Positions 1-57,420 of a DNA stretch of 64,000 bases are shown piece after piece (position 1 is the stretch's first letter; each line of letters begins with the position of its first letter). The translations under genes were made by a program, and so were the position numbers. The notes beneath the pieces are model-generated. The model saw only the letters and a list, made by a program, of their open reading frames with translations, had not been told where the DNA came from and made no database searches. The stretch covers positions 26,784,001 to 26,848,000 of the forward strand of contig OZ024762.1 of assembly GCA_964016885.1 (NCBI GenBank), given 5' to 3'. Source of the stretch: Eledone cirrhosa. Taxonomy: Eukaryota.

Positions 1-195
1 CAGCGTTATTTTTGTTGTTGTTGTATTTGTTGTTGTGATCGTGTCTTTGTGAAAAGATTGGAGCAGCATTACTTTTGTTGTTTTAGTTGTTGTAATCATG
101 TCTTTGTGAGGAGACTGAAGCAGCATTACCACAGCAGGGGGTGGCTTTATTGTGCATTAGTGGTGATGACAATCACTTTTACCATATATGGAATT

Positions 196-5879: not shown

Positions 5880-6624
<745 letters not shown>

Positions 6625-6630
<6 letters not shown>

Positions 6631-7699
6631 TGCCCACCTAAATATATTCTTACATGAATATATGTTAGACTTTTACATAAACTGGAGACATTCTCCCAAT
6701 TTGTAGAAAACTTATAATGAAACAATTGTTCGGAAAGAGAGATATATTTTAACTTTAATTATATCTCATAAAATAATAAAACTGGCTTTCCACAAAATAC
6801 ATATAGTTAGCATCCCAAACACTTAAATTGGGTTATACTAACATATAACCTAATGTTTATTGAGTGAGATGGTTACCAGTCGGAGTTTAGCGTTAAGCTA
6901 TCTCTGTTATTGTATTAAATATGTTACTCTTGATTTGGCCAGAGGTACTTATTTCCAGGTACCTTATAAACATGAGTTTCTGTATTTGTTACTGTGGAGG
7001 TTTTTTGGTTGTAACTTCTCTGTTTTTAGCCTAAGAAAATATATATATGCGTGTGTAAATAATTACATGCATACATTTATTTATTTTTTAAAATTAATTG
7101 AGTTCTTAACACGTGGAATTGATAATAGTTTTAAATAACTAATTAACCCGCGTGTATTAAATATTTTACTCTTAATTTGGCCAGAGATTTACATTCCCAA
7201 TCCATTTTAAAGCGTAACCTTCAGTATTTGCTGCAGTGATGTGATGCGGTTTGTTATTTTGGTATCACCTCTGTTTTTAGCCTAAGAAAATATCTATATG
7301 CGTGTGTAATTAATACACGCATACATTTATTTTTTAATTTCAATTGAGTTCTTAACACGTTGGATTGATAATATTTTTGAAAAAAATAATTAACCCGAGT
7401 GTATATTATTTTTTTTTTCTCGTGTATCGTGGTTGTCTCCCTTTCCCGCTTCGTGACGCTATGAAACTTCCTCAGTCAAAAGACTGCTGGGATTTCAAAT
7501 TTGGCGGTCATTCGATGCGTGAAAGAGCAGCTTAGCAGACACGATTTTTAACTGTGGTAAGAATTTTTTCTTATATCAAAGTGTAATGGGCTTCCACTGA
7601 AGATTTATAAGTGCCCACCTAAATATATTCTTACATGAATATATGTTACGCTTCTACATAAACTGGAAACATTCTCCCAATTTGTAGAAAACTTATAAT
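6625..7699 (+). mobile_element. ORF-less terminally redundant mini-element (about 981 nt unit) with split hammerhead
   Basis: About 94 bp direct repeats at 6625-6718 and 7606-7699, flanked by (TA)n. CTGAAGA at 7597 and GAAACAATTGTT at 6719. Internal duplication of about 250 bp (6911-7165 vs 7153-7405). Confidence 0.7.
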
Positions 7700-7783
7700 A
7701 TATATATATGTATATATGTATATATATGTATATATATGTATATATATAGATAAATATATGTATATATATATATATATATATGT

Positions 7784-8474
7784 ATATTTTAGTAAGTAGG
7801 TTAATTTTATAATTTTCTTATTTTACGTCTCTCATATTATTGTTCTGCAACCCCATGCATTGAACCACAAAGTTACTAAGACAAAACCTATATATTTGCT
7901 AGCATTGTTATGCATCTGTATGTATATATATATGTTACTAGATATTAATTCTTTATAATTATCTCCAAATTATTTGTCGAGCAATATTGGCCATGGCTGC
8001 TGCTATGGTAGCAGGCCGCTGTCTTATTAACAAACCACTTTCCACTGATTGACCTCGATGTCACGTGATTGATTCTTTTTGAATTTGCCACCGACGCAGA
8101 GGCAGTGATTTTCTCAATGGCTAGGAATTCAGTCCACGCTTTGCTATTTCCTATCCACTGAATTATTTTTTAATAAGTTTCCAGTGTCCACGCTTTGCCT
8201 GGATACTTAGATGAGAATAGACCTCCCTGACGACGGAATGCTTCTCTGTATCTTCTTCGGAAAATATATTTATTCCATTCCAGAAACTAATTAGTTGGAA
8301 GTGATATTTTAGTAAGTAAGTTAATTTTATAATTTTCTTATTTTACGTCTCTCATATTATTGTTCTGCAACCCCATACATTGAACCACAAAGTTACTAAG
8401 ACAAAACCTATATATTTGCTAGCATTGATATGCATCTGTATGTATATATATGTTACTAGATATTAATTCTTTAT
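7784..8474 (+). mobile_element. ORF-less terminally redundant mini-element (520 nt unit) with hammerhead
   Basis: About 172 bp direct repeats at 7784-7957 and 8304-8474, embedded in (TA)n. An HHR sits immediately 5' of the second repeat. Confidence 0.8.
8222..8301 (+). ncRNA. Type I hammerhead ribozyme
   Basis: CTCC-CTGACGA-GGAATG..CATTCC-GAAA-CTAATTAG (palindromic stem III)-TT-GGAAG. Confidence 0.75.
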
Positions 8475-8653
8475 ATGTATAAATATATGTATATATATAT
8501 GTATCTATATATATATCTATATATATATGTATATATATGTATATATGTATATATATATGTATGTATATATGTATATATATATGTTTGTATATATATATAC
8601 ATATACATATGTATATATATATGTATATATGTATATATATATATGTATATATA

Positions 8654-8684
<31 letters not shown>

Positions 8685-8709
8685 CTATATATATATGTAT
8701 ATATATATG

Positions 8710-8753
<44 letters not shown>

Positions 8754-8829
8754 CAAATAGGCGGAAGAAAACAAGATGCATCAATGCTGGCAAATTCCAA
8801 GCAAACCTGCAAACACAAATACAGTAGAA

Positions 8830-9635
8830 CACAGTTACGCAGGACCAGGAGGGACCTTTATCCCCGTGTTACAATCAATACGAACCTGTGTATAGATATG
8901 AGCGATGATGCATCTTTTTCCTCACTCCATATGAATGTGGCGACAATGTGCAGACGCCTCGATGGCTGGATCTTGAGTACTTTCTGGACAAGAGACCGAG
9001 ACACCATCTTGACACTATGGAGGACATTTGTCCTAAGCCGCCTGGACTATTGCTCCCAGTTGTGGTCACCCCATAGTGTCAAACACGGAGCTTGAGGCAA
9101 TCCAGCGAAGCTACACCAAGAGCATTGCAACGATGAAGGAGATAAGCTATGGGGAGAGGCTAAAAGAAATTAACCTCTACTCCTTGGAACGAAGACGGGA
9201 AAGATACGCAGTGATCTACATGTACAAAATCCTGGAGGGACTAGCACCAAACTTTGGCATTGGGAGCTGGACCAACCGTCGAACAGGACGTCATTGTGTG
9301 GTGCCAAAGGTCCCGTCTTCCACATCTAGAATAAGGAGCTGATATTGCAATAGCCTGGGATTCAAGAGCCCTCACCTCTTCAACAAGCTGCCGAGTAATC
9401 TGAGAGATCTGCATGGTGTGGAGGTCTTCAAGAAACATCTCAACACCTTGCTTTCAAGGATCCCGGATGAGCGCACAGAAAGGCACGTGAGAAACCTAAG
9501 GGCAGCAGCAACAAACTCCCTCTTACACCAGTGTTCAACCTATACAGGCTGGAGATATAATGTGTAGCAACAAGGGCGGTGCCCCAGCATGGCCTCAGCC
9601 GTATGGCTGGAACCGGTAACAGATTAAAAGAGTAT
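8830..9635 (+). mobile_element. CR1-group LINE 3' fragment
   Basis: [20 protein letters not shown] and [33 protein letters not shown] are typical CR1/L2-group ORF2 C-terminal motifs; frameshifted. Confidence 0.8.

Positions 9636-56671: not shown

Positions 56672-57420
<749 letters not shown>

What the first reader, a model, noticed from the sequence alone, without database searches (positions are those of the whole stretch)
7784..8474. 520 nt retrozyme-like monomer whose 5' end maps to its own ribozyme cut site
Seen: a 172 bp terminal direct repeat. The HHR at 8222-8301 is predicted to cut after 8296, and the repeated sequence that forms the element's 5' end starts about 8 nt later. Inference: this fits reverse transcription of a self-cleaved tandem or circular RNA for more than one unit.
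Basis: partly seen in the sequence, partly recalled or inferred. Interest (0 to 1): 0.75.

Follow-up and report, generated by a model that had tools for sequence, protein, structure and literature searches.

The report
Penelope-type retrozyme; ends crowd ribozyme cut
This is one of thousands of copies of a non-coding jumping repeat with a predicted self-cutting RNA motif, likely pasted into TA microsatellites by a Penelope-type reverse transcriptase; its copies stop just short of the predicted cut site about three times more often than chance, which suggests the ribozyme does cut the copied RNA, though most copies read straight through it.

Summary
Real. The 173/171-bp repeats (period 520) and a type I hammerhead motif (8221-8302, predicted cut 8296|8297, covarying stem II) are present. 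The element is one of at least 2,463 genomic units in subfamilies of 520-541 nt. The terminal repeat is no LTR: 3' ends sit at two fixed sites 61 and 181 nt after the cut, mostly in (TA)n, and 84 of 87 inverted insertions pair one of each, as ORF-bearing Neptune-like elements here also do. A circle is not shown: satellite arrays up to about 200 kb offer linear templates, and no RNA run was listed. Extra: a sister subfamily carries (CT)4-40 at the distal end in 24 of 28 copies versus 0 of 43 internal sites, suggesting reverse-transcriptase stutter. No autonomous partner found. The scan has noted this two-armed kind before in this and other genomes.

The parts
7784..8474 (+). Whole insertion: one 520-nt unit plus 171 nt, single (non-inverted) arm, 5' end at cut+8, 3' end at the distal start site
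   Evidence: same layout at an independent locus L015
7784..7956 (+). 5' copy of the terminal repeat (pseudo-LTR-like overlap)
8304..8474 (+). 3' copy of the terminal repeat
8221..8302 (+). Type I hammerhead motif, long stem II with cUUCGg loop (8255-8260), minimal palindromic stem III; activity untested
8285..8296 (+). Perfect 12-nt palindrome of stem III, predicted to allow a dimeric hammerhead; predicted cut after 8296
   Evidence: self-duplex -10.8 kcal/mol; invariant in 12 of 12 representatives
8350..8357 (+). Proximal 3' end site of the family (unit position 54, cut+61; also 7837 in the first unit); read through in this copy
   Evidence: 50 of 95 anchored arms end here; loose TA ends at 8357 in public contigs
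8466..8474 (+). Distal 3' end site (unit position 174, cut+181), used by this copy
   Evidence: 45 of 95 anchored arms
7694..7787 (.). Left (TA)n-type microsatellite flank (target)
8472..8753 (.). Right (TA)n-type microsatellite flank

Best explanation
This is a copy of a high-copy, non-coding tandem repeat family with a predicted type I hammerhead (an animal non-LTR retrozyme), likely mobilised in trans by a Neptune-type Penelope-like reverse transcriptase/GIY-YIG endonuclease whose identity was not found. Shown: 3' ends fall at two fixed sites 61 and 181 nt after the predicted cut, mostly in (TA)n; inverted insertions pair one of each; arms run from under one to several units; 5' ends are scattered but about threefold enriched just 3' of a cut site. 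Inferred: the enzyme nicks both strands of a TA tract, each strand primes inside the RNA at one of the two sites using TATA/ATAT microhomology, and copies towards the RNA 5' end; the ribozyme cuts only a minority of sites, so the polymerase usually reads through but sometimes runs off a self-cut 5' end and is joined, with a few bases lost, to the target or to the other arm. The window copy is such a run-off: distal start, one ribozyme read through, stop 7 nt short of the next cut. The template is most likely a partly cleaved linear multimer (about 55%) rather than a monomer circle (about 35%).
For: Copy number: 3,002 first-look candidates, top 40 at 97-100%; 2,463 exact 37-mers. Two ends: 95 of 110 arms in 61 position-ordered loci; 168 loci hold 84 proximal+distal inverted pairs, 2 distal+distal, 1 proximal+proximal, 48 and 30 single arms. 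TA-rich flank at 192 of 255 3' ends and 32 of 72 free 5' ends. ORF-bearing elements with RT, GIY-YIG and CX2-5CxxC linker in the same genome show the same long/short inverted ends in (TA)n (L136, L140, L146). Two internal RT start sites and the tail are shown in vitro for an anole PLE (PMC11167929). 5' ends in cut+1..21: second pass 18 of 88 (5.2 expected, P about 1e-5); pre-set fresh loci 9 of 37 (3.7 expected, P=0.014), with third pass 12 versus 4.3 (P=0.002). TA-joined ends on C1: 20 of 21 lie at cut+3..22, one beyond the cut (binomial P=0.016); distance to the TA tract is 22 nt or less in 19 of 21 versus 18 of 35 at a control site (Fisher P=0.003). One event joins unit position 433 to exactly cut+1. 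Internal priming: 6 of 89 distal ends in four subfamilies keep two further template bases. Stem II covaries.
Against: No autonomous partner among 50 GIY-YIG loci of 10,596 candidates. In the first unbiased sample the excess over all passes was not significant (10 versus 5.7, P=0.067); the split by pass was post hoc there. Ends form a broad rise over cut+1..60, and few lie at the cut itself; cut+7..12 offers palindromic or ATAT microhomology that could attract joints. The background stop rate rises with arm length (about 4% per 20 nt in the first full unit, about 8% in the next; hand sums), which lowers the excess to roughly threefold. The first-versus-later-pass contrast (10/142 versus 23/105, P=0.001) is weaker in fresh loci (first pass 5 of 25) and among TA-joined ends (11 first pass, 8 later, 2 unclear). 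With a template-kept measure the control comparison was not significant (P=0.24; control undercounted). The motif has a C.A mismatch at the base of stem II, a GUU triplet, no Rfam hit, and this copy has a stem I mismatch. HHR cleavage was dispensable in vitro for the anole PLE (PMC11167929).
Confidence: 0.7

Rival explanations
1. Same element and enzyme, but the template is a 520-nt covalently closed circle made by double self-cleavage and ligation; the polymerase laps it, and the pile-up near the cut comes from re-cut circles or from stalling during strand displacement.
For: Arms of up to about 5 units; no recurrent upstream-versus-downstream unit variants; 45 locus-private variants shared by units or arms of one locus versus about 2 by chance; first ribozyme rarely ends an arm in the unbiased set (3 of 88); circles are shown for coral, mussel and axolotl retrozymes (PMC7229834); monomer folds better than shuffles (z -3.1).
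Against: A closed circle has no 5' end, so it does not by itself predict stops at the cut; homogeneous satellite arrays (C28 about 200 kb, C4 about 80 kb, L092) give linear multimers with the same sharing; adjacent units differ by 2.3%, no less than two arms (2.0-2.4%).
Confidence: 0.35
2. The 5' pile-up marks an internal promoter's transcription start or a structural pause just 3' of the ribozyme, not self-cleavage; the hammerhead is a mostly silent passenger.
For: Ends centre on cut+5..20 with a tail to +60 rather than at +1; PLEs have an internal promoter in the pLTR (PMC8557442 passage); no reads began at the HHR cut in anole RNA-seq (PMC11167929); 8 of 9 Xenopus dimers did not cleave (10.64898/2026.07.22.740005).
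Against: The drop lies at the cut; one exact cut+1 template join and one exact cut+1 arm start (L191); core and stems are kept across subfamilies about 20-30% apart.
Confidence: 0.25
3. Local DNA duplication or satellite spread without an RNA step.
For: Large satellite arrays of three subfamilies exist; no A>G strand bias in private variants (61 versus 77 T>C, ratio 0.99).
Against: Dispersed copies on many contigs with fixed 3' ends, variable 5' truncation and inverted twin arms identical in style to RT-encoding PLEs.
Confidence: 0.03

Closest known systems
Metazoan non-LTR retrozymes (Cervera and de la Pena 2020, PMC7229834: passages and Discussion read; Li, Clavereau and Pollet 2026, bioRxiv 10.64898/2026.07.22.740005: parts 1-3 of 5 read)
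   Same: Non-coding, AT-rich (36% GC) tandem unit with one type I hammerhead, monomers to large arrays, co-occurring PLEs; unit length within the 51-972 bp range of the preprint.
   Different: Longer than the ~300-nt typical unit; expression and circles not shown here; the texts read do not describe two fixed 3' ends, proximal/distal inverted pairs, (TA)n targeting or 5' ends mapped to the cut.
EN+ Penelope-like elements, Neptune type (Craig et al. 2021, PMC8557442: passages; Frangieh et al. 2024, PMC11167929: parts 1-2 of 4)
   Same: Partial tandems forming pLTRs, inverted 5'-truncated copy, tail at one end only, microsatellite bias, two internal RT start sites downstream of the HHR cut.
   Different: No ORF; the two sites are 120 nt apart instead of 30-40; the one-of-each rule is quantified (84 of 87); 5' ends lean on the HHR cut, whereas HHR cleavage was dispensable in vitro for the anole element.
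Minimal PLE hammerheads (Cervera and de la Pena 2014, PMC4209133: parts 1-2 of 4 read)
   Same: Long helix II, extra base after A9, G-C first pair, palindromic helix III suited to dimers; circle-templated more-than-unit copying was proposed there.
   Different: An extra A opposite the extra C gives a C.A mismatch at the base of helix II; helix II closes with a cUUCGg loop in A subfamilies.
Template slippage at RT initiation in LINEs (UnaL2 TGTAA; PMC3747384 passage) and LINE microsatellite seeding in squamates (PMC6050309, listing only)
   Same: Short repeat in the template at the start site expanded at the element's 3' end.
   Different: Here it occurs at one internal start site of a PLE-type passenger and only in the subfamily whose template reads CTCTATA.

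Membership tests
Metazoan non-LTR retrozyme | Type I hammerhead in each unit | tested here: met
   Core found in 140 of 162 units examined; covariation; no Rfam hit
Metazoan non-LTR retrozyme | Tandem, multi-copy, AT-rich units | tested here: met
Metazoan non-LTR retrozyme | No protein-coding capacity | tested here: met
   Six-frame translation full of stops; no match to PLE proteins beyond another retrozyme copy
Metazoan non-LTR retrozyme | Self-cleavage activity | not testable with these tools
   Only indirect support from 5' ends
Metazoan non-LTR retrozyme | Expression as linear and circular monomer RNA | not testable with these tools
   No RNA holder listed
PLE-mobilised element | Two alternative 3' ends (tail) | tested here: met
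   spacing 120 nt
PLE-mobilised element | Partial tandem plus inverted 5'-truncated copy | tested here: met
   87 inverted pairs in 168 loci
PLE-mobilised element | Microsatellite insertion bias | tested here: met
PLE-mobilised element | Sequence shared with the pLTR of an autonomous PLE | tested here: inconclusive
   None among 50 loci examined of 10,596 GIY-YIG candidates
Autonomous PLE | RT plus GIY-YIG ORF | tested here: not met
Plant LTR retrozyme / LTR element | Type III HHR in true LTRs with fixed ends | tested here: not met
   Type I topology; 5' boundary varies from copy to copy

The most novel reading that the evidence does not exclude
The family records in its genomic copies two steps of Penelope-type retrotransposition not shown in the papers searched: the ribozyme really makes the 5' ends of the copied RNA in vivo, sparing the site nearest the start, and the telomerase-related RT stutters at the distal internal start site, writing new (CT)n microsatellites from a CUCU seed before it elongates.
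Probability: 0.35. Interest if true: 0.72.

Novelty: new member of a known kind. Interest (0 to 1): 0.5.

Why it matters
The role of the hammerhead in Penelope-like elements is called unclear in PMC8557442, was dispensable in vitro in PMC11167929, and PLE mobilisation of animal retrozymes is proposed but not shown in the texts read. Thousands of young copies with mappable ends turn these into countable questions: where the RNA begins, whether a circle is the template, and whether a telomerase-related RT seeds microsatellites in a genome full of them.

Tried and rejected
Rfam: no hammerhead model matched at E up to 1 or 10. Expression: no RNA holder listed; the three runs laid are contigs of unknown kind from one sample and may be the source of the assembly. 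Partner search: Pfam GIY-YIG scan, 50 loci read, tblastn, blastn and nhmmer gave only two nested retrozyme copies (L118, L139); the apparent 3'-UTR link in L139 is a separate insertion in a TA tract. A diverged copy as query led to a satellite, not an ORF. Circle tests by unit divergence, recurrent unit variants and shared private variants were inconclusive. RNA-editing scar, a lead from e1-8803865: not seen. (CT)n from compound-microsatellite targets: rejected, no CT tract left on the opposite flank of inverted copies. (CT)n from later DNA slippage: unlikely, since A-family proximal ends have (CT)3 beside (AT)n and 1 of 100 carries a CT tract. (CT)n inherited from source loci: not excluded; length does not track relatedness (permutation P=0.39) but lengths peak near 8 rather than falling geometrically. 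The automatic pass flag was unreliable and was replaced by the layouts. Genome-wide pattern counts (73 versus 28 forward) lack denominators and are not used as a test. Paper searches with no or no relevant hit for cut-site mapping or PLE repeat synthesis; PMC12602865 passages held nothing relevant. Supplements were not read; those of the preprint and of PMC11167929 (Fig. S2) may bear on end mapping.

Full report
Observation. The window lies in an unnamed 3.0-Gb, microsatellite-rich animal-type genome. The repeats 7784-7956 and 8304-8474 are 97% alike at a spacing of 520 and sit between TA arrays 7694-7787 and 8472-8753. A type I hammerhead motif spans 8221-8302 with a predicted cut after 8296. 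The repeat begins at the 8th base after the cut; the left junction shares ATAT with the flank. No long open frame exists. Rfam does not recognise the motif, but the core is present in 140 of 162 units, and in 12 representatives 96.6% of stem cells pair, with 15 double-sided changes and 3 of 6 stem II pairs covarying, above all 500 shuffles and all slid controls (relatedness can inflate the shuffle test). Hammerhead numbering and the cut rule are from my own knowledge; long helix II, an extra base after A9 and a palindromic helix III match the PLE hammerheads of PMC4209133.

Family. The internal part gives 3,002 candidates with the top 40 at 97-100%; a 37-mer occurs 2,463 times. Subfamilies have units of 520-525 (A), 539 (B; a B copy is 78% to the window over 303 columns) and 541 nt (C). 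Satellite arrays exist on C1, C4 (about 80 kb) and C28 (about 200 kb).

Anatomy of insertions. In 61 loci taken in order along C1, 95 of 110 arms end at unit position 54 (50) or 174 (45), that is 61 or 181 nt after the cut. Over 168 independent loci there are 84 inverted pairs with one end of each type, 3 with two alike, and 78 single arms (dropped first: 39 duplicate loci, 13 satellite or secondarily rearranged loci, the window copy; 17 arms with other 3' ends and arms touching a locus edge were left out of end counts). 192 of 255 3' ends and 32 of 72 free 5' ends abut TA-rich DNA. Young ORF-bearing elements with RT and GIY-YIG domains and a CX2-5CxxC linker, which PMC8557442 ties to Neptune, show the same long/short inverted ends in (TA)n (L136, L140, L146). 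This is the PLE tail, explained in vitro by two internal RT start sites (PMC11167929). Six of 89 A-family distal ends keep two more template bases (8 flagged, 2 rejected by eye), as internal priming predicts. So the terminal repeat is the overlap between a fixed distal start and a variable stop. None of 50 PLE loci shares sequence with the unit; the partner is unidentified.

In the unbiased set 5' ends are spread over the unit; the 21 nt after the cut hold 10 ends against 5.7 expected (P=0.067). Splitting by how many ribozymes an arm has reached suggested an excess from the second on. I wrote this down and fetched fresh loci from three subfamilies: 9 of 37 arms stop there on the second pass (3.7 expected, P=0.014), 3 of 6 on the third; pooled P=0.002. 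By subfamily it is uneven (A3 5, A2 4, B 0 on the second pass but 3 on the third and 8 in cut+22..60). All sets: 10/142, 18/88, 5/17. The background rises with arm length, so the excess is about threefold, and it is a broad rise over cut+1..60. As a separate look, TA-joined 5' ends on C1 lie at cut+3..22 in 20 of 21 cases with one beyond the cut (P=0.016); at a control site they spread evenly (19/21 versus 18/35 within 22 nt, P=0.003; P=0.24 by a measure that undercounts the control). Of these 21, 11 are short first-pass copies, so sparing of the first ribozyme is partial. One duplicated event joins position 433 to exactly cut+1. The claim therefore holds as a tendency: the window copy belongs to a real minority class, while about four in five arms read through.

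Template. Adjacent units in an arm differ by 2.3% (697 of 30,499 sites), two arms by 2.0-2.4%, with no recurrent position-specific variants outside homopolymers; 45 of 495 locus-private variants are shared within a locus against about 2 by chance, and there is no A>G bias. This fits one source per insertion but not circle over homogeneous array. Stops at the cut need a free 5' end, which favours partly cleaved linear RNA or re-cut circles. PMC11167929 found the shortest active 5' truncation 6 nt upstream of the HHR cut, which would explain why RNA cut at the nearest ribozyme is a poorer template (inference).

Side result. Subfamily B reads CTCTATA at the distal site. 24 of 28 terminal sites carry 4-40 CT units against 0 of 43 internal sites. 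CT tracts of 5 or more: B distal 23 of 31, B proximal 0 of 35, A distal 0 of 89, A proximal 1 of 100, with none left on the opposite flank. Length does not follow relatedness (lengths entered by hand). One PLE copy shows a TATC run at its long end (L144). RT slippage at initiation is the likeliest cause (about 60%); inheritance from source loci is not excluded. Slippage is known for LINEs (PMC3747384 passage); searches found no such report for PLEs in the held library.

Comparison and verdict. It meets the sequence-testable features of a metazoan non-LTR retrozyme and of a PLE-mobilised element; cleavage, expression and circles are untested. The class, its proposed PLE link, the tail, inversions and microsatellite bias are in print (PMC7229834, 10.64898/2026.07.22.740005, PMC8557442, PMC11167929). 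Earlier notes of this scan describe the two-armed pattern for other families here and elsewhere; they are unchecked and not counted as support. What this family adds is a measured pile-up of 5' ends at the ribozyme cut, a 120-nt tail and the CT expansion. New member of a known kind; interest 0.5.

Noticed in passing
window 56770-57400: A second, unrelated hammerhead repeat (motif at +57165) with a short inverted arm and TA flanks; same family as a 459-nt tandem in L132.
   Followed up: partly
window 29271 (+), 57900 (-), 29786 (-): Further type I hammerhead-like motifs; the first two resemble each other and the first is followed by a TA run, likely PLE ends.
   Followed up: no
window 8780-9500: Degraded 3' part of a LINE reverse transcriptase frame right of the TA flank (label from my own knowledge).
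   Followed up: no
window 6622-7699: 97-nt direct repeat (6622-6718 / 7603-7699) between TA arrays and a ~245-nt partial tandem at 6911-7414.
   Followed up: no
G000:C28:8783040-8979962 and G000:C4:18614133-18695193: Satellite arrays of about 200 kb (541-nt unit) and 80 kb (524-nt unit) made of hammerhead-bearing units of this family.
   Followed up: partly
L131:2809-5622 (-), L133:1775-5062 (+): Long open Neptune-like PLE frames (938 and 1,096 codons); the L131 family is about 97% alike and has a hammerhead-like motif with a variant core (UUGAAAA in place of CUGANGA).
   Followed up: partly
L026, L037, L077, L091, L173, L271: Inverted pairs whose two arms end at the same unit position, often at a short palindrome, hinting at cDNA-cDNA annealing.
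   Followed up: no
L144, long end of the L134 PLE family: A long TATC run follows the end where the template reads CTATC; possibly the same start-site stutter.
   Followed up: no
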